Source of the DNA: an uncultured Mycoplasmatota bacterium
GTDB lineage: Bacteria; Bacillota_I; Bacilli_A; RF39; UBA660
Assembly (NCBI GenBank): GCA_948465965.1
Contig: CAOJYR010000006.1
Coordinates: 1 to 62,255, forward strand
Direction: 5' to 3'
DNA length: 62,255 nt
A program made the position numbers and the translations under genes. Of this stretch, positions 40,909-59,611 are shown in pieces (the stretch's first letter is position 1; the number at the start of each line of letters is the position of its first letter). The notes beneath the pieces are model-generated. The model was not told the DNA's origin. It saw nothing but the letters and a program-made list of their open reading frames with translations, and ran no database searches.

Positions 40909-41820
40909 TTAATATATCATTGTATGTAGCATTCTTTCTGTATTTTTAAAATTCACTTTAGCAATCTCTTTTAATTTTTCTTTCCCATACTTTTCAACTA
41001 CTTCTTCACCAATGGTATCTACATCACGTCCAGCTCCCTTAGGAAGAGGAATATGAATAGAGTCACAGAGCTTATCGAATTCTTTTAAAAATAAATATCT
41101 ACTAATAATAGATCCACACGCCACAGCTAAATTCTTATCTTCTGCTTTCGTCATAAAAGTTATATTTCTTTGAATAGTGGGAACATCTTTTATATATTCA
41201 TAATATCTTGCTTCTCTTGCAAATTCATCTACGATAATATAATCAACACTAGGATGTTCTTCTTGCATTAACTGATATAAAACTTTATTATGCATAATAG
41301 CTTTTATCTTGTTCATATTAATATCTTTAGTATATTTTTCATTGTATTCTTTATTACTAAGAATCATACTGCGATACTTAATCTTTTTAGCAATCTCAGG
41401 AGCAATCTTTAATATTTTCTTGTCATCAATCTTTTTAGAATCTCCAACGCCGAGTTTCTCTAAAAATTCTATATCTTCTTTTCTAACATAACAGGCAGTG
41501 ACAACAATAGGACCAAAATAGTCTCCAGTTCCAACCTCATCCGATCCAACTGAATCACAATAATAGTACTTTTTATTAACTTCTTTTTGTTTGTCCTTTT
41601 TCTCTTTAGTATTTTCTAATTGAACTCCCCACATAGCAGCATCAACATCAGCACTCGTCCCTTGAAACATACACTTTCCAGACTCATATAGAGTAATGAC
41701 AGTATCTTCTTCCTGGGCTTGGAAAATAGCATAGGGTATTTTTTTATCCCTTATTTTATCTTTATAATATTCAATCATTTTTTCTTTAATTTCATCATTT
41801 ACTTTAATAACAACATTCAT
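40909..41820 (-). CDS. rnhC: ribonuclease HIII
   Basis: N-terminal DUF3378-like domain plus the RNase H fold (GSDEVGTGDYFGP). The true start is the ATG at 41820 (MNVVIKV), preceded by GAGGTG. The longer ORF-track N-terminus was rejected. Confidence 0.85.
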   Translation of the reverse strand: MNVVIKVNDEIKEKMIEYYKDKIRDKKIPYAIFQAQEEDTVITLYESGKCMFQGTSADVDAAMWGVQLENTKEKKDKQKEVNKKYYYCDSVGSDEVGTGDYFGPIVVTACYVRKEDIEFLEKLGVGDSKKIDDKKILKIAPEIAKKIKYRSMILSNKEYNEKYTKDINMNKIKAIMHNKVLYQLMQEEHPSVDYIIVDEFAREARYYEYIKDVPTIQRNITFMTKAEDKNLAVACGSIISRYLFLKEFDKLCDSIHIPLPKGAGRDVDTIGEEVVEKYGKEKLKEIAKVNFKNTERMLHTMIY

Positions 41821-41893
41821 TATTAACACCTCAAAAACATTATAGCATATTTTAAATAAATAGTTTATAATAAAAGAGTAAGGAGTTGTAAAC

Positions 41894-42610
41894 ATGAATA
41901 TAATTGATATTATAATAGTATTACTATTAATAATGGCAGGTCTGGTTGGATTTAAAAAAGGAGCAATTAAGGAAGCTGTTTCTCTAGTCGGAATAATTTT
42001 AGTATTTGTAATTGCTTTTTCATTAAAAGGATATTTAGGAAATATCTTATGTAAATACTTACCATTTTTTAATTTTACCGGAAATTTAAAAGGTGTAGTG
42101 ACATTAAATATTTTAATGTATCAACTAATTGCCTTCTTTATAATCTATAGTATTTTATTTAGCATTTATGCTATAGTATTAAAGTTGTCTGGTATAGCAC
42201 AAAAATTAGTAAATATGACTATCGTATTATTATTACCATCTAAAATTATTGGATTCATCATCGCTTTCATAGAAGGATATATTATAACATTTATTGTTTT
42301 ATTAACATTAATGATTCCCTTAAAAGGCACATCAATGATAACAGAAAGCGCATTAGCTAATAAAATAATATATAATAGTCCTATTATTTCCAAAAGCACC
42401 AGCAATATAACTAATTCAATAACCGAAATATATGACTTAGGTGATAATCTATCCAAAAACGAAATATCAACAAATGACGCAAACTTAAAAGCATTAGATA
42501 TTATGTTAAAATATAAGATTGTAACACCAAAAACAGTAGAGCAACTAATTGTATTAGATAAATTAAATAGTGTTAAGGGAACAGAAGCAGTTATAAATAA
42601 ATATAAGTAG
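41894..42610 (+). CDS. cvpA: CvpA family membrane protein
   Basis: The N-terminus MNIIDIIIVLLLIMAGLVGFKKG is typical of CvpA. 4-5 TM segments. Divergent from rnhC, as in Bacillus. Confidence 0.7.
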   Translation: MNIIDIIIVLLLIMAGLVGFKKGAIKEAVSLVGIILVFVIAFSLKGYLGNILCKYLPFFNFTGNLKGVVTLNILMYQLIAFFIIYSILFSIYAIVLKLSGIAQKLVNMTIVLLLPSKIIGFIIAFIEGYIITFIVLLTLMIPLKGTSMITESALANKIIYNSPIISKSTSNITNSITEIYDLGDNLSKNEISTNDANLKALDIMLKYKIVTPKTVEQLIVLDKLNSVKGTEAVINKYK

Positions 42611-54965: not shown

Positions 54966-57224
54966 ATGGCAAAGAAAAAAAAGAAAAAACAAACAAAAAA
55001 AGGCTTTGAATACAGTGCCGAATTATATGGAATAGTTCTACTTTTATGTTCAATACTAGGAATAGGTAAATATGGACCAGTTGGAAGATTAATTTCATCA
55101 TTTGCTCTTTTTTTAGTAGGATCTATATATATGGTATTTTTAGTAGTATTATTTATAGTAGGAGCCTATTTATTAGTAAAAAGAGAATGGCCAGACTTTT
55201 TTGAAACAAAATTAATTGGTTTATATGTTTTTACATTAGGTTTTTTAATAACTATGCATCAAAGTTTTATTGTACAAAACGATGGAAATATGATGATTAT
55301 ATTTAGAGAGACAATAAATCAATTAGTAGCTGCATTCAATGGTATTATGAATAATGGTGTTTTAGAAGATTGGTTTGCAGTAGGTGGTGGAATAGTAGGT
55401 GGGACCTTTGCTATTATTTTTGATAAGCTATTTTCATACACAGGTATGCAAATAGTATCCTGGGTTTTGATGATAGCAGGAGTTTGTTTATTCACTGGTT
55501 TTTCTATCATTGATTTTATAAAAGAAAAAGTAAGTCAAAGAAAAGGCAAAAAAGAAAAAGAACCTAAAAAAGAGAAAAAGTCATCTGTTATTATTAGTAA
55601 TGGCAACGAAGAAGATTCAAAAGAAAATGACAAACACATTAAGATTACAAGTATTGATGAAATAACAAAAGCCTCTCCAAAAGATATAAATCAAAATAAC
55701 ACAGAAGAAAAAAGCATACAAGAAAAACAGCTTATTTCTAGCAAGGATTATCAATTGCCACCCCTAAATATATTGGATAAACCAAAGAAAAGACAGAAAG
55801 ATACAGATAATGGCATAATTGAAAAAAATATAGAAACATTAGAAAGAGTATTAAAGGATTTTAAAATTATTGGTAAAGTTGTAGAGGTTCATATAGGTCC
55901 CACTGTTGCTCAATATGAACTTGAAATTGCAAGTGGTACCAGAGTAAATAAAATCACATCTATCAATAGAGAAATAGCCTTAGCATTAGCTAAGAAAGAT
56001 GTTCGTATAGAAGCACCAATTCCTGGAAAAAATACAGTAGGAATTGAATTTGCAAATGAAGTAGCAACACCAGTTAGCTTTTATGAAATTATCAGCAGCA
56101 AGTTAATGATGAATTCTATGAGCAAAAAATTAATGGTACCTCTTGGAAAAAGTATCATGGGAGATATTGGTGTTTGTGAAGTCAATAAAATGCCTCATAT
56201 GTTAATAGCTGGTACCACAGGTTCTGGTAAATCAGTTTGTGTTAATGGAATTATTTGTTCTATATTAATGAGAGCTCGTCCAGATGAAGTAAAGTTAGTT
56301 ATGGTTGACCCTAAAGTTGTCGAGTTATCAGTTTACAATGGAATCCCACATTTAATGTGCCCGGTTGTAACTGATCCCAAAAAAGCGGCTGTTGCTCTTG
56401 CTAAGATGGTAGCAGAAATGGAAAGACGTTACGAAGTATTTAGTGAAAGTAAAACAAAAAATATTGAAGGATATAATGATTATATTGATAAATGGAACAA
56501 AGAACATAAAGGCGATGAGGTAAAAAAAGCCCGTCTTCCATATATTGTTATTATAATAGACGAGTTAGCCGACTTAATGATGGTAGCTGCTAAAGAAGTA
56601 GAAGATTCAATTCTAAGAATCACTCAAAAAGCACGTGCAGCCGGAATTCATTTAATAGTAGCAACACAACGTCCTTCAACTGAGGTAATCACAGGTTTAA
56701 TTAAAGCAAATATTCCTTCACGTATCTCATTTGCAGTTGGATCAGGAATTGATTCTAGAACGATATTAGACCAAACAGGTGCTGAAAAATTATTAGGAAA
56801 AGGAGATATGTTGTTTCTACCAATCGGTATGAATTCTCCAATTCGTATTCAAGGTTCATTTATAACAGACGATGAAATCAAAAGAATCATTGATTATACA
56901 GTAGAACAACAAAAAGCACAATATGATGATTCCTTATTAAATCTAGATGTAGTGGATGCAAATGATAAAAGTAGTGGTTCAATAGATAATGATACTACAA
57001 CCGATAGTGATGATCCACTATATAATGACATCGTAAAATTTGTAATAGAAACCCAAAAAGCAAGCGCTTCCCTTTTACAAAGAAGGTTTAAATTAGGATA
57101 TAATAGAGCAGCACGTATTATAGATCTCTTAGAAGAACGTGGTGTAATTGGGCCACCTAATGGATCAAAACCGCGTGAAGTATTAGTACAATTAGGTAAC
57201 AATGAAGAAGTAAATGACGAATAA
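54966..57224 (+). CDS. ftsK: DNA translocase FtsK/SpoIIIE
   Basis: N-terminal TM segments, a linker, the motor domain with Walker A GTTGSGKS and a C-terminal gamma (winged-helix) domain LLQRRFKLGYNRAARIID. ATG 54966 follows GAGGAG. Confidence 0.9.
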   Translation: MAKKKKKKQTKKGFEYSAELYGIVLLLCSILGIGKYGPVGRLISSFALFLVGSIYMVFLVVLFIVGAYLLVKREWPDFFETKLIGLYVFTLGFLITMHQSFIVQNDGNMMIIFRETINQLVAAFNGIMNNGVLEDWFAVGGGIVGGTFAIIFDKLFSYTGMQIVSWVLMIAGVCLFTGFSIIDFIKEKVSQRKGKKEKEPKKEKKSSVIISNGNEEDSKENDKHIKITSIDEITKASPKDINQNNTEEKSIQEKQLISSKDYQLPPLNILDKPKKRQKDTDNGIIEKNIETLERVLKDFKIIGKVVEVHIGPTVAQYELEIASGTRVNKITSINREIALALAKKDVRIEAPIPGKNTVGIEFANEVATPVSFYEIISSKLMMNSMSKKLMVPLGKSIMGDIGVCEVNKMPHMLIAGTTGSGKSVCVNGIICSILMRARPDEVKLVMVDPKVVELSVYNGIPHLMCPVVTDPKKAAVALAKMVAEMERRYEVFSESKTKNIEGYNDYIDKWNKEHKGDEVKKARLPYIVIIIDELADLMMVAAKEVEDSILRITQKARAAGIHLIVATQRPSTEVITGLIKANIPSRISFAVGSGIDSRTILDQTGAEKLLGKGDMLFLPIGMNSPIRIQGSFITDDEIKRIIDYTVEQQKAQYDDSLLNLDVVDANDKSSGSIDNDTTTDSDDPLYNDIVKFVIETQKASASLLQRRFKLGYNRAARIIDLLEERGVIGPPNGSKPREVLVQLGNNEEVNDE

Positions 57225-57238
57225 TTTACTTCTTTTTA
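57205..57238 (+). terminator. rho-independent terminator of ftsK
   Basis: 11-bp perfect stem AAGAAGTAAAT / ATTTACTTCTT spanning the stop codon, followed by a T-run. Confidence 0.8.
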
Positions 57239-57271
57239 TATAATAAAAAACTTTCTATGTAGTAAGATAGA

Positions 57272-57280
57272 TGGTATAAT
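57272..57280 (+). promoter_or_regulatory. extended -10 promoter of the retron cassette
   Basis: TGGTATAAT. The -35 is weak. It sits immediately downstream of the ftsK terminator. Confidence 0.55.
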
Positions 57281-57286
57281 AGCATC

Positions 57287-57458
57287 AAGAGCAATAGTGA
57301 ATGGATTTATCCTACTTTAGCGACTCGTTAAAGGACAAAAGAATTAGAATCAAATAATAGTAATATTTCAAAGGGCACTACTACACGTTGTGTAGAACGC
57401 TTCATTGCATTACGCTTTTAAGCCCATTTCCATATTACAATATCAATAAGTATTGCTC
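57287..57458 (+). ncRNA. candidate retron msr-msd non-coding RNA
   Basis: Structured leader of about 170 nt directly upstream of, and co-oriented with, a retron-type RT. Terminal inverted repeats are GAGCAATA (57289-57296) and TATTGCTC (57451-57458). Internal hairpins lie at 57315-57333 and 57381-57395, and GGGC/GCCC pair at 57373-57376 and 57422-57425. The boundaries are approximate. Confidence 0.5.
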
Positions 57459-57476
57459 CAAAAGGAGGTAATAAAA

Positions 57477-58427
57477 ATGTGGAAATACATTAGTAAAGAG
57501 CAAGAAAAAGAATTTTTATTATCTCTAAATTTAATAGATAATAAACTGACAGATAAAGAAAAAATAATAAAAATTTATTCTATCAGTAATAACATAAAGA
57601 ACAATTATAAAATTTATAAAATACCAAAGCATAATGGAAAGAAAAGACTTATTTATGAACCAAGCACCACCCTAAAACATATTCAAAGACAAATATTAAC
57701 CAACATTTTAGAAAACAAAAGTATTTCTGAATATGCAAAGGCATACTGCAAAGGTATATCTTTGAAAAAGAGTGCCTTGCCACACCTAAATAAAAAAACA
57801 GTCTTAAAACTAGATATTAAAGATTTTTTCAATCACATTAATTTTATCGATATTTATAATTCCTGTTTTCCAATAGAATATTTTCCAAAGCCAATTGGTA
57901 TACTATTAACTTATCTTTGTACATATGAAAATCACTTACCACAAGGCGCTCCAACGTCAGCCTATATTTCGAATTTAGTCCTAAAGGAGTTTGATGAGAA
58001 AATAGGAAGATTATGTTTTGAGAAAAACATTTCTTACACCAGATATTCGGATGATATGACTTTTTCTGGAGACTTTAACCCAACAGATATAATCAAAGTT
58101 GTAAAAAAAGAATTACACAAGTATAAGTTAGAGATTAATAAAGACAAAATACATGTAATCAAGAAAAACAATAGACAAACAGTAACAGGAATAGTTGTTA
58201 ATAAAAAAATGCAAGTATCAAGAGATTACAGAAAGAAAATAAGGAAAGAAATATATTATATTAAAAAGTATGGATTACCCTTCCATTTAAATAAAATAAA
58301 ATATGAGGGTAATCCAGAAAAATATTTAAAAAGTTTATATGGAAAAGTCTTATATGTTTTGCAGATAAACAAAGAAGATAAAGAATTTAATTTATATAAA
58401 AGGTATTTGGAGACACTATATGGATAA
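57477..58427 (+). CDS. retron-type reverse transcriptase
   Basis: 316 aa from ATG 57477 (SD AAAGGAGG 57461-57468). Motifs: LKLDIKDFF, LPQGAPTSAYISNL, YTRYSDD (58035-58055) and RQTVTGIVVN (VTG at 58182-58190). Size and motif set fit retron RTs; no maturase or endonuclease domains are present. Confidence 0.8.
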   Translation: MWKYISKEQEKEFLLSLNLIDNKLTDKEKIIKIYSISNNIKNNYKIYKIPKHNGKKRLIYEPSTTLKHIQRQILTNILENKSISEYAKAYCKGISLKKSALPHLNKKTVLKLDIKDFFNHINFIDIYNSCFPIEYFPKPIGILLTYLCTYENHLPQGAPTSAYISNLVLKEFDEKIGRLCFEKNISYTRYSDDMTFSGDFNPTDIIKVVKKELHKYKLEINKDKIHVIKKNNRQTVTGIVVNKKMQVSRDYRKKIRKEIYYIKKYGLPFHLNKIKYEGNPEKYLKSLYGKVLYVLQINKEDKEFNLYKRYLETLYG

Positions 58428-58611
58428 ACGAATTTTTAACAAATATATGAACGAACAAATTATACAAAAAATAGGTATCTTAGGAGAATGTTTTAGCATA
58501 AATATAGATGAATGGCATCCAGCAAAGGAAAATAGTAAATATCCACATCGTATTTATTTTTATCAAGAAAACAATATTGTTGGTTATATAGATGCAAATA
58601 CAAGAAACTAA
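58420..58611 (+). CDS. small retron-associated ORF (63 aa), possibly the 5' half of an interrupted 127-codon gene
   Basis: Its ATG overlaps the RT stop (ATGGATAA, 8-nt overlap). No TM segment and no recognised domain. The same frame stays open for 64 more codons after the TAA at 58609 (to TAA at 58804-58806). Confidence 0.5.
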   Translation: MDKRIFNKYMNEQIIQKIGILGECFSINIDEWHPAKENSKYPHRIYFYQENNIVGYIDANTRN

Positions 58612-58894
58612 AAACAATTAATCTTTGAGACTGATCAGAAGACTGTATCTTTATATGATAATTTTTTATACCAATGTTTTAAAAATAAAAACCAAGAGTT
58701 CTATGATCAATTTTATAGATACATAGTAAAGGGAAAGGAACAAAAGGAATTACAAAAAACAAAATCACAACTAATTAAAAAGAGAAATAACTTCTCGATC
58801 AATTAATATTATGGAGATAAATTCTCTTTTTCTTTATGGTTGTTTATTTTTAGCTAATTTGCTATACTGAATATGGTAGAAAGAAGGTATGATT

Positions 58895-59611
58895 ATGGCA
58901 ACACCACATATAGAAAGTAAAAAAGAAGAGATAGCAAAAGTAGTACTAATGCCTGGAGATCCACTTCGTGCGAAATATATTGCAGAAAAGTTTTTGAATG
59001 ATTATAAATTAATTAATACAGTACGTAATATGTTTGGATATACTGGGTATTATAAAGGAAAAGAAGTAACAGTATTTGCATCAGGTATGGGAGTACCAAG
59101 TATTGGGATTTATTCTTATGAATTGTATAAATACTATGATGTAGAAAAAATAATTAGAATTGGAACAAGCGGTTCTTTTAATAAAGATATAAAAATATTA
59201 GATGTAGTTTTATCAGAAGGTAGTTTTTGTAAAAGTTATTTTGATAAATTATTAGATGATAATGATGTAGACTACATTGAATCTAGCAAAGAACTAAACA
59301 ACAGTATTATATCGAAATCAAAAGAAAAAAACATACCAATTAAATATGGAAAAACAATAACCAGTGATGTTTTTGACTTGTATTGTGATAATGAAGATGA
59401 TTTTAGAGAAAACTTCCCAAAAGAAGAGAACTATTTAGCAGTAGAAATGGAAGCGTTTGGACTATTCTATATTGCGAAAAAATTAAATAAAGAGGCTGCC
59501 TGTCTAATGACAGTTGTTGATTCCCTATATGATAAAAGGAGTCTAACTAGTGAAGAAAGGGAAAAGTCACTTGATGAAATGATTACTTTAGCACTTGATG
59601 CTGCTTTATAA
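58895..59611 (+). CDS. deoD: purine nucleoside phosphorylase, DeoD-type
   Basis: MATPHI...VVLMPGDPLRAKYIAEKFL...GMGVPS...IRIGTSGS...EMEAFGLF. ATG 58895 is 7 nt after AGAAGG. Confidence 0.9.
   Translation: MATPHIESKKEEIAKVVLMPGDPLRAKYIAEKFLNDYKLINTVRNMFGYTGYYKGKEVTVFASGMGVPSIGIYSYELYKYYDVEKIIRIGTSGSFNKDIKILDVVLSEGSFCKSYFDKLLDDNDVDYIESSKELNNSIISKSKEKNIPIKYGKTITSDVFDLYCDNEDDFRENFPKEENYLAVEMEAFGLFYIAKKLNKEAACLMTVVDSLYDKRSLTSEEREKSLDEMITLALDAAL

What the first reader, a model, noticed from the sequence alone, without database searches (positions are those of the whole stretch)
57240..58806. Compact retron-like cassette between ftsK and deoD with a small partner gene of no recognisable effector class
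A self-contained unit sits between the strong ftsK terminator (57205-57238) and the deoD promoter. It consists of an extended -10 promoter (TGGTATAAT), a structured non-coding leader of about 170 nt, a 316-aa RT and an ORF overlapping the RT stop by 8 nt.

The RT carries retron-type motifs (PQGAPTS..SNL, YTRYSDD, RQTVTGIVVN). Described retron systems pair the RT-ncRNA with a recognisable effector, such as ATPase+HNH, TOPRIM, TIR, NDT, PRTase, protease, 2TM, cold-shock or HTH modules. I can see none of these here.

The only partner is a small soluble-looking ORF: MDKRIFNKYMNEQIIQKIGILGECFSINIDEWHPAKENSKYPHRIYFYQENNIVGYIDANTRN, plus a possible 64-codon continuation. The flanks are housekeeping genes, and there is no integrase or prophage context. 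This is the best candidate in the window for an undescribed anti-phage module.
Basis: partly seen in the sequence, partly recalled or inferred. Interest (0 to 1): 0.8.

Follow-up and report, generated by a model that had tools for sequence, protein, structure and literature searches.

The report
Effector-less retron beside a gene relic
This is a real retron (a reverse transcriptase plus its structured template RNA) of the already described Ec107-like "orphan" kind, and the small gene next to it is the broken leftover of an unrelated 320-residue gene, not a new anti-phage effector.

Summary
Between ftsK and deoD lie an extended -10 promoter, a ~170-nt structured leader, a 316-aa RT, and an ORF that overlaps the RT stop by 8 nt.

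The RT is a retron RT. Its best PADLOC model is RT_Ec107-like (2e-125, full length), and all 14 PDB sequence hits are retron RTs. The leader is a genuine msr-msd ncRNA. It is conserved from the -10 box to the RBS in 77 related loci, and 24 of 34 base pairs show compensatory changes.

The "partner" reading fails:
- No related RT locus (0 of 82) carries the small ORF.
- No gene family occurs in more than 10 of the 82 loci within 6 kb.
- An exhaustive HMMER search shows the ORF is the N-terminal 64 residues of an uncharacterised ~320-aa family, joined directly to that family's C-terminal ~55 residues.
- About 200 central codons are deleted, and the TAA sits at the junction.
- Members of that family lie away from any RT in the five distinct contexts examined.

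The cassette is therefore a new member of the effector-less Ec107-like retron branch noted by Mestre et al. (2020), next to a pseudogene. Related species have this ftsK-deoD spacer empty or filled by a lipoprotein gene.

The parts
57205..57240 (+). ftsK intrinsic terminator. It marks the left edge of the insertion and is conserved in the empty site of relative L102.
   Evidence: Inverted repeat I4 with 11-nt perfect arms plus a T-run. blastn matches window 57201-57237 to L102 1431-1469.
57273..57281 (+). Extended -10 promoter TGGTATAAT of the retron transcript.
   Evidence: TGnTATAAT is conserved in the alignment of 81 related leaders, and conservation stops just upstream of it.
57289..57458 (+). 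Retron ncRNA (msr-msd). Stem a1 is 57290-57296 and a2 is 57451-57457, with G57289-C57458 as an extra pair.
   Evidence: RNAalifold on 77 sequences. Pair counts: all 7 a1/a2 pairs have double changes.
57297..57299 (+). Candidate branching (priming) G: G57297 or G57299, in the conserved TAGTG just 3' of a1.
   Evidence: Inferred from position and conservation in the alignments. Not assignable without msDNA mapping.
57303..57333 (+). Two msr hairpins: 57303-57305 with 57310-57312, and 57315-57322 with 57326-57333.
   Evidence: Helices 2 and 3: 3 of 3 and 5 of 8 pairs have compensatory changes.
57360..57438 (+). msd stem: 57360-57365 with 57433-57438, and 57373-57376 with 57422-57425. Inner hairpin: CTACAC/GTGTAG at 57381-57395.
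   Evidence: Helices 4-6; coordinates.
57477..58427 (+). Retron reverse transcriptase, 316 aa, with RBS GGAGG at 57464-57468.
   Evidence: PADLOC RT_Ec107-like 2.2e-125 over residues 9-313. Pfam RVT_1. All PDB hits are retron RTs. M1 W2 K3 Y4 are invariant in the family, which fixes the start at 57477.
58420..58611 (+). Relic gene, 5' part: 63 codons equal to the N-terminal domain of an uncharacterised ~320-aa family. It ends at TAA 58609-58611, at the deletion junction.
   Evidence: phmmer against 1.8 billion representatives: 21 hits other than the window's own ORF, best 3.7e-17. Family profile positions 1-64 match at 94 bits. tblastn gives up to 60% identity over 60 aa.
58612..58806 (+). Relic gene, 3' part: 64 codons equal to the C-terminal ~55 residues of the same family. 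It has no start codon of its own in this frame.
   Evidence: Family profile positions 266-318 match residues 65-121 (i-Evalue 4e-8; 5e-9 for the 64-aa piece alone). Codon score 0.156.
58813..58835 (+). Weak terminator-like hairpin (GGAGA-TAAAT-TCTCT) plus a T-run after the relic gene. Homology with relatives' deoD upstream region resumes at about 58829.
   Evidence: Read from the sequence. It was not called by the scan, which needs at least 3 G-C pairs. blastn matches query 1629-1700, i.e. window 58829-58900, to L088-L096.

Best explanation
The segment ~57239-58828 lies between ftsK and deoD and has no counterpart in related species. It holds two unrelated things.

(1) A complete minimal retron of the Ec107-like, effector-less branch. 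A constitutive-looking extended -10 promoter drives one transcript. Its 5' ~170 nt fold into the msr-msd ncRNA: an a1/a2 closing stem, two msr hairpins and an msd stem with an inner hairpin. The rest of the transcript encodes the RT. By analogy with characterised retrons, the RT binds the ncRNA, primes from the 2'-OH of the G just 3' of a1, and copies the msd into a branched msDNA of roughly 80-90 nt.

(2) A dead gene immediately downstream. It keeps the first 64 and the last ~55 codons of a ~320-aa protein family of unknown function. It has lost the central ~200 codons and carries a TAA at the deletion junction. It is not a retron component.

No toxin or effector is encoded in the cassette. 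Any phenotype would therefore depend on RT-msDNA alone or on a gene elsewhere in the genome.

Shown here: RT family assignment, ncRNA structure and covariation, non-conservation of neighbours, the relic nature of the ORF, and empty sites in relatives. Inferred: msDNA synthesis, the priming G, and the absence of a defence output.
For: RT:
- PADLOC RT_Ec107-like 2.2e-125 (416 bits, full length), ahead of RT_III-A at 355 bits.
- NCBIfam retron_St85_RT 218 bits, against Drt2 59 and group II 54 bits.
- All 14 PDB hits are retron RTs.
- YSDD, VTG and the H of NAXXH are present.

ncRNA:
- Conserved from the -10 box to the RBS in 81 loci.
- 98.7% of cells are paired and 24 of 34 pairs have double changes; 0 of 500 shuffles and no slid register come close.

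No partner:
- tblastn of the ORF against 87 RT loci finds nothing.
- No neighbour cluster occurs in more than 7 of 82 loci within 2.5 kb, or more than 10 of 82 within 6 kb.

Relic:
- Searches show profile 1-64 plus 266-318, with the TAA at the junction.
- Family members sit next to Peptidase_M29, next to DUF87, or with unannotated neighbours only, and never next to an RT.

Insertion:
- The ftsK-deoD gap is about 70-105 nt in L102, L098 and L101, and holds a lipoprotein gene in L089-L096.

Literature:
- The Ec107 branch (59 RTs) has no specifically associated protein (PMC7736814).
- Clade 2 RTs are among the best RT-DNA producers (PMC10849725).
Against: - The relic's ATG overlaps the RT stop (ATGGATAA) and has a GGAG 7 nt upstream. 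The 63-aa N-terminal domain is intact with gene-like codon usage (0.437). A short product could therefore still be made and might have been co-opted.
- The RT was not placed in a tree with Ec107 itself; assignment rests on profile scores.
- The window RT has SALPH where over 90% of the family has NAxxH (N99S, D98K), so its activity is not guaranteed.
- Only five distinct contexts of the 320-aa family were inspected.
- Only 62 kb of the genome is visible, so an effector acting in trans cannot be excluded.
Confidence: 0.82

Rival explanations
1. The 63-aa product (the N-terminal domain of the 320-aa family) is expressed by translational coupling with the RT. It has been recruited as a lineage-specific small retron accessory or effector.
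For: An 8-nt start/stop overlap and a GGAG Shine-Dalgarno. Codon score 0.437, typical of genes. The N-terminal domain is the best-conserved part of the family and is intact.
Against: It is unique to this one contig. None of the 82 related RT loci has it. The same frame continues into the family's own C-terminus after the TAA, which is the signature of a deletion plus nonsense relic, not of a designed small gene. The parent family is not retron-linked. It has no PADLOC or Pfam match.
Confidence: 0.07
2. The ~320-aa family is a genuine, still undescribed retron effector class. The window shows a decayed example in which the toxic effector was inactivated.
For: The gene is adjacent to, co-oriented with and overlapping the RT. 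The family has no Pfam, PADLOC, NCBIfam or PDB match, and its confident AF2 model has no structural neighbour, so a new function is possible. Toxic effectors are often inactivated (general knowledge).
Against: No RT lies within 5 kb of the family members looked up: P0145, P0150, P0168, P0122 and P0146, giving 12 loci (L168-L179) in five distinct contexts. No family member lies within 6 kb of 82 Ec107-like RTs. The family lives in sporulating Firmicutes next to housekeeping genes.
Confidence: 0.04
3. The retron does work as a tripartite defence system, but its effector is encoded elsewhere in the genome, or was lost here. One candidate is the AAA_15/AAA_21 ATPase found just upstream of the ncRNA in a sub-lineage.
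For: In 7 of 82 loci a 288-302-aa PtuA/AriA/MAD3-like ATPase ends 194-212 nt upstream of the RT. It is the only fixed-position neighbour found. Mestre et al. suggest that the Ec107 branch lost its associated protein.
Against: In the window the upstream gene is ftsK with its own terminator. The only ATPase examined next to the cassette is the FtsK motor itself. [quoted passage not shown] Only 62 kb of this genome can be inspected.
Confidence: 0.15

Closest known systems
Retron-Eco5 (Ec107) and the Ec107 branch of retron RT clade 2 (Mestre et al. 2020, PMC7736814)
   Same: A minimal promoter-msr/msd-RT cassette with a ~316-319-aa RT. The best profile match is RT_Ec107-like. It sits in a housekeeping intergenic spacer without prophage or integrase (for Ec107, from memory of Herzer et al. 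1992 and from PMC7736814). No specifically associated effector gene.
   Different: The host is a low-GC gut 'Bacilli'/Tenericutes-like lineage, not E. coli. The ncRNA sequence, msd included, is conserved across many species. No direct tree with Ec107 was built, and msDNA is not demonstrated.
Type III-A retrons (RT plus PRTase-like protein, with or without a winged-helix protein)
   Same: RT_III-A profiles are the second-best RT matches (6e-107). Mestre et al. place the Ec107 branch at a node shared with PRTase-linked RTs.
   Different: No PRTase-like or winged-helix gene is next to this RT or next to its 82 relatives.
Type I-A / Septu-associated retrons (Ec78: RT plus PtuA ATPase plus PtuB HNH)
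   Same: A sub-lineage of the RT family (7 of 82 loci) has an adjacent PtuA/AriA-like AAA_15 ATPase.
   Different: This is not the case in the window. There the ATPase is upstream of the ncRNA, is only ~290 aa, and no HNH partner was seen. The RT belongs to a different clade.

Membership tests
Retron (RT + msr-msd ncRNA) | The RT groups with retron RTs and not with group II intron, DGR, Abi or UG/DRT RTs. | tested here: met
   The top 25 PADLOC hits are all retron RT models, best 2.2e-125. NCBIfam retron_St85_RT scores 218 bits, against Drt2 59.5 and group II 54.4. All 14 PDB sequence hits are retron RTs.
Retron (RT + msr-msd ncRNA) | Retron-specific region X (NAXXH, H most conserved) and region Y (VTG) in the RT (PMC7736814). 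| tested here: met
   VTG is present in RQTVTGIVVN. Region X reads SALPH: H103 is invariant in the family, but N99 is replaced by S in the window, whereas over 90% of relatives have N.
Retron (RT + msr-msd ncRNA) | An adjacent ncRNA with terminal inverted repeats a1/a2, one to three msr hairpins and a long msd stem-loop. | tested here: met
   Six helices on 77 sequences, 98.7% paired. 24 of 34 pairs have compensatory changes, and 0 of 500 shuffles reach the observed values.
Retron (RT + msr-msd ncRNA) | A conserved branching G at the 3' end of a1. | tested here: inconclusive
   G57297 and G57299 lie in the conserved TAGTG directly 3' of a1. Which one primes cannot be told from sequence.
Retron (RT + msr-msd ncRNA) | Production of branched msDNA. 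| not testable with these tools
   This needs expression and nucleic-acid extraction. Clade 2 RTs are reported as high RT-DNA producers (PMC10849725).
Tripartite retron defence system (types I-XIII) | A cognate effector gene or fused effector domain co-evolving with the RT. | tested here: not met
   The RT has no extra domain (316 aa). The downstream ORF is a relic that is absent from 82 related loci. No neighbour family occurs in more than 10 of 82 loci.
Ec107-like orphan branch of retron clade 2 | The RT matches the Ec107-like profile best and over its full length. | tested here: met
   PDLC03739 RT_Ec107-like: 416 bits, residues 9-313 on profile 2-306 of 307.
Ec107-like orphan branch of retron clade 2 | Placement in a phylogeny with Ec107 and the reference retron RT set. 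| not tested
Type III-A retron | A PRTase-like effector adjacent to the RT. | tested here: not met
   No PRTase hit in the window ORFs next to the RT. No conserved neighbour family of any kind, as would be expected for a cognate PRTase, among the 82 related loci.
Uncharacterised ~320-aa family (alignment A3/A4), for the small ORF | A full-length match to the family profile (324 positions). | tested here: not met
   Only profile positions 1-64 and 266-318 are present. Positions 65-265 are missing and a TAA lies at the junction.

The most novel reading that the evidence does not exclude
This RT-ncRNA cassette belongs to a large family of effector-less retrons in small-genome gut Bacilli: 308 confirmed matches among GTDB species-representative genomes. 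The msd sequence itself is conserved, and no linked partner exists. The family could therefore have an effector-independent role in which RT-msDNA is the functional product, or it could use an unlinked or previously unrecognised partner. The upstream ~290-aa ABC-type ATPase seen in 7 of 82 loci is one candidate.
Probability: 0.2. Interest if true: 0.7.

Novelty: new member of a known kind. Interest (0 to 1): 0.3.

Why it matters
The claim of a new effector class falls away, so this locus should not be prioritised as an undescribed defence module.

What remains useful:
- It is a clean, compact example of the Ec107-type retron in an uncultured low-GC gut lineage.
- Empty sites are documented in related species.
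- The covarying ncRNA alignment of 77 sequences could seed an Rfam-style model.

The family bears on a known open question: what do retrons without effectors do? It could also supply short, well-defined RT-ncRNA pairs for RT-DNA production. These points belong to the family as a whole, not to this window's "partner" gene.

Tried and rejected
- PADLOC and Pfam on the 63-aa, 64-aa and 128-aa versions of the ORF: nothing significant.
- Rfam on 56500-59500: only chance-level hits and no retron family.
- Word-indexed search of 5.8 billion proteins with the 128-aa ORF: no hit. This was a false negative, later overturned by the exhaustive phmmer search.
- Exact-sequence look-ups of the window's DeoD, 63-aa ORF and RT: not on record.
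The two halves were not folded separately, because they are fragments of one domain architecture.
- Foldseek of the full-length family model against PDB and BFVD: no match at or below E 0.001, and TM below 0.25.
- PDB sequence search with the family profile: only a chance hit.
- NDT-like reading of the 138-aa ORF after the RT in L001: not supported by Pfam, with only weak AbiO/Nhi hits.
- Literature searches for orphan or standalone retrons gave nothing beyond Mestre 2020.
- A stop-codon reassignment reading of the TAA was considered and rejected. The TAA lies exactly at the junction of two non-contiguous parts of the family profile.

Full report
**Observation.**
- ftsK ends at 57224. Its terminator is an 11-nt perfect inverted repeat (57205-57215 / 57224-57234) followed by a T-run.
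- TGGTATAAT lies at 57273-57281. A non-coding leader runs to the GGAGG at 57464-57468.
- The RT ORF starts at ATG 57477 and stops at 58425-58427, giving 316 aa. The ORF listing extends it to a TTG at 57453, but M1-W2-K3-Y4 are invariant in 31 relatives, which fixes the start at 57477.
- A 63-codon ORF starts at 58420 and overlaps the RT stop by 8 nt. It ends at TAA 58609-58611. The same frame then stays open for 64 more codons, to the stop at 58804-58806.

This is not chance. Only 2 of 20000 shuffles of 58420-58806 have two or fewer in-frame stops. Both halves score as coding in that frame only: 0.437 and 0.156 per codon. Genes score 0.50 +/- 0.15, the off-frame 99th percentile is 0.108, and the RT itself scores 0.288.

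**The RT is a retron RT of the Ec107-like group.**
- PADLOC's best model is RT_Ec107-like (2.2e-125, 416 bits, residues 9-313 on profile 2-306 of 307). Several RT_III-A models follow, best at 355 bits, and then other retron types.
- NCBIfam gives retron_St85_RT at 218 bits, against 59 for Drt2 and 54 for group II intron RT.
- All 14 PDB sequence hits are retron RTs (Kva2, Ec86, Ec78, Ec67, Ec83, Eco8).
- YSDD and the retron-specific VTG are present. In region X the window reads SALPH. The H is invariant, but N99 is replaced by S, whereas over 90% of relatives have N.
- Overall the window RT deviates at 9 highly conserved columns. Other members deviate at 0-12, so it does not look decayed.

**The leader is a retron ncRNA.** More than 100 RTs share 64-71% identity with this one. 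A scan of species-representative genomes gave 308 confirmed relatives. The 80 loci fetched come almost entirely from uncultured gut 'Bacilli', 'Tenericutes' or 'Erysipelotrichaceae' MAGs.

Aligning the 260 nt upstream of each RT shows strong conservation that begins exactly at TGnTATAAT and runs to the RBS. There is none further upstream.

RNAalifold on 77 distinct leaders predicts the classical retron layout:
- a closing a1/a2 stem (window 57290-57296 with 57451-57457);
- two msr hairpins (57303-57312 and 57315-57333);
- an msd stem (57360-57365 with 57433-57438, and 57373-57376 with 57422-57425).

I added the inner hairpin CTACAC/GTGTAG (57381-57395) by hand. On this 34-pair structure, 98.7% of cells pair and 24 pairs have changes on both sides (120 cells). 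None of 500 shuffles reaches the observed values, and registers slid by 1-3 columns drop to 32-48% pairing. Rfam has no model that matches.

The priming G is probably G57297 or G57299, in the conserved TAGTG 3' of a1. This is an inference.

**There is no conserved partner.**
- tblastn of the 63-, 64- and 127-aa versions against 87 related loci finds nothing.
- I clustered all ORFs around the RT in 82 non-redundant loci. Within 2.5 kb no family occurs in more than 7 loci. Within 6 kb none occurs in more than 10, and the largest is a set of ABC transporters at variable positions.
- Genes directly downstream are heterogeneous and look like housekeeping genes. By eye they include FtsA-, NusB-, NUDIX- and GNAT-like proteins, ABC transporters and others; these were not scanned.
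- The only neighbour at a fixed position is a 288-302-aa AAA_15/AAA_21 ATPase. It ends 194-212 nt upstream of the RT in 7 loci and resembles PtuA, AriA and MAD3. The window lacks it.

This pattern matches Mestre et al. (2020). The clade 2 branch containing Retron-Eco5 (Ec107) has 59 RTs and no specifically associated protein cluster. The authors suggest the partner was lost (PMC7736814).

**What the small ORF is.** The word-indexed protein search found nothing. An exhaustive phmmer search of 1.8 billion representatives found, besides the window's own 63-aa ORF, 21 hits. All are N-termini of proteins, 17 of them 304-342 aa long. The best is P0122 at 3.7e-17. tblastn gives up to 60% identity over 60 residues.

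A profile of 18 members aligns to the window ORF in two pieces:
- profile positions 1-64 match residues 1-65 (94 bits, 1e-30);
- profile positions 266-318 match residues 65-121 (4e-8; 5e-9 for the 64-aa piece alone).

The window gene therefore keeps the family's start and its C-terminal ~55 residues. It has lost the central ~200 residues, and the TAA sits exactly at the junction. This is a deletion-plus-nonsense relic. It is neither a designed small gene nor a recoded stop.

The family is small (39 clusters at 90% identity). It has no Pfam, PADLOC, NCBIfam or PDB-sequence match. AlphaFold2 on a 36-sequence alignment gives a confident model (pLDDT 88.9, pTM 0.87). The model has N- and C-terminal helices around a long beta-sheet core, and it has no significant neighbour in PDB or BFVD.

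Five members were looked up, giving 12 loci (L168-L179). They lie next to Peptidase_M29 in two lineages, after a DUF87 ATPase plus a 229-aa gene in one, or among unannotated neighbours. The hosts are sporulating Firmicutes. None has an RT within 5 kb. None of the 82 RT loci or the 80 deoD loci carries a family member.

**Insertion context.** The ftsK-deoD-peptidase synteny is conserved in metagenomic relatives (FtsK 62-89%, DeoD 69-79% identity). The spacer varies:
- about 70-105 nt in L102, L098 and L101, consisting of the terminator followed by the deoD RBS;
- one lipoprotein gene in L089 and L095;
- two genes in L090, L092, L094 and L096.

None of these has an RT. Window homology to relatives ends at about 57237 and resumes at about 58829. 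The unique segment therefore includes both the retron and the relic, followed by a weak hairpin plus T-run at 58813-58835. Whether the two arrived together or separately cannot be resolved.

**Mechanism.** Most likely the cassette makes one transcript. The RT uses the folded leader to synthesise a branched msDNA from the msd, as in characterised retrons (mechanism as summarised in PMC7736814; clade 2 RTs are strong RT-DNA producers, PMC10849725). No effector is encoded in cis. The output of the system is therefore unknown, as it is for Ec107 itself.

I put 0.82 on 'Ec107-like effector-less retron plus unrelated gene relic'. The alternatives are not all mutually exclusive with it:
- an unlinked or lost effector: about 0.15;
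- co-option of the 63-aa product: 0.07;
- the 320-aa family being a real retron effector class: 0.04.

**Verdict.** The retron call is supported and strengthened. The locus is a new member of a known kind, of modest interest. The most interesting residue concerns the family as a whole: hundreds of gut Bacilli species carry an effector-less retron with a conserved msd, and a sub-lineage pairs it with an upstream ATPase.

Noticed in passing
L003:3926-4792 (also L029, L045, L048, L054, L070, L081): A 288-302-aa AAA_15/AAA_21 ATPase (PADLOC mad3, PtuA and AriA-like, around 1e-13 to 1e-16) always ends 194-212 nt upstream of the Ec107-like RT, giving ATPase-ncRNA-RT. It is the only fixed-position neighbour in the RT family and a possible unrecognised retron partner. 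In L003-L006 it lies beside a relaxase, TnpV and a serine recombinase.
   Followed up: partly
L013, ORF starting 74 nt after the RT stop (560 aa): A large ORF directly downstream of the RT carries two R-x4-H motifs (RNKLAH, RNSIAH) reminiscent of HEPN. It has no Pfam or PADLOC hit.
   Followed up: partly
Proteins P0122-P0177 (alignments A3, A4); loci L168-L179: An uncharacterised ~320-aa family in sporulating Firmicutes. Its AF2 model is confident (pLDDT 88.9, pTM 0.87) but has no PDB or BFVD structural match. It also has no Pfam, NCBIfam or PADLOC hit. It is adjacent to Peptidase_M29 in two lineages, and follows a DUF87 ATPase plus a 229-aa gene in another.
   Followed up: partly
window 57360-57450 and alignment A2: The msd sequence itself (GTAATA...CTACACGTTGTGTAG...TATTAC), not just its structure, is conserved among RTs that are only 61-70% identical. 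This is unusual, because msd regions normally differ strongly between retrons.
   Followed up: no
window 57765-57779 (RT residues 97-101): Region X of the window RT reads KKSALPH. Over 90% of family members have DNAxxH (D98K, N99S), so the retron NAXXH motif keeps only A and H here.
   Followed up: partly
window 57225-58894 versus L088-L104: The ftsK-deoD spacer is a variable spot in this lineage. It is empty (about 70-105 nt), holds one or two genes including a conserved ~200-226-aa lipoprotein, or (in the window) holds the retron plus the relic.
   Followed up: yes
L019, L020, L022, L025: ORF overlapping the RT stop by 4 nt (50 aa): A conserved 50-aa lysine-rich ORF ending in FSWDENVGKEKW is translationally coupled to the RT in four closely related loci. 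Its function is unknown.
   Followed up: no
L001/L010: 5948-6364 and 6348-6908: A 138-aa ORF overlaps the RT stop by 4 nt and is followed by a NUDIX gene. The 138-aa protein has only weak AbiO/Nhi PADLOC hits (1.5e-4) and no Pfam hit.
   Followed up: partly
L046:5806-6012: In this relative the reading frame at the predicted RT start closes after three codons, and the leader alignment is displaced by extra sequence. The copy is possibly disrupted.
   Followed up: no
window 1-62255: Of the ORFs of at least 140 aa, only one of those that are not nested inside a longer ORF is on the minus strand (40909-41895). The window is 29% G+C.
   Followed up: no
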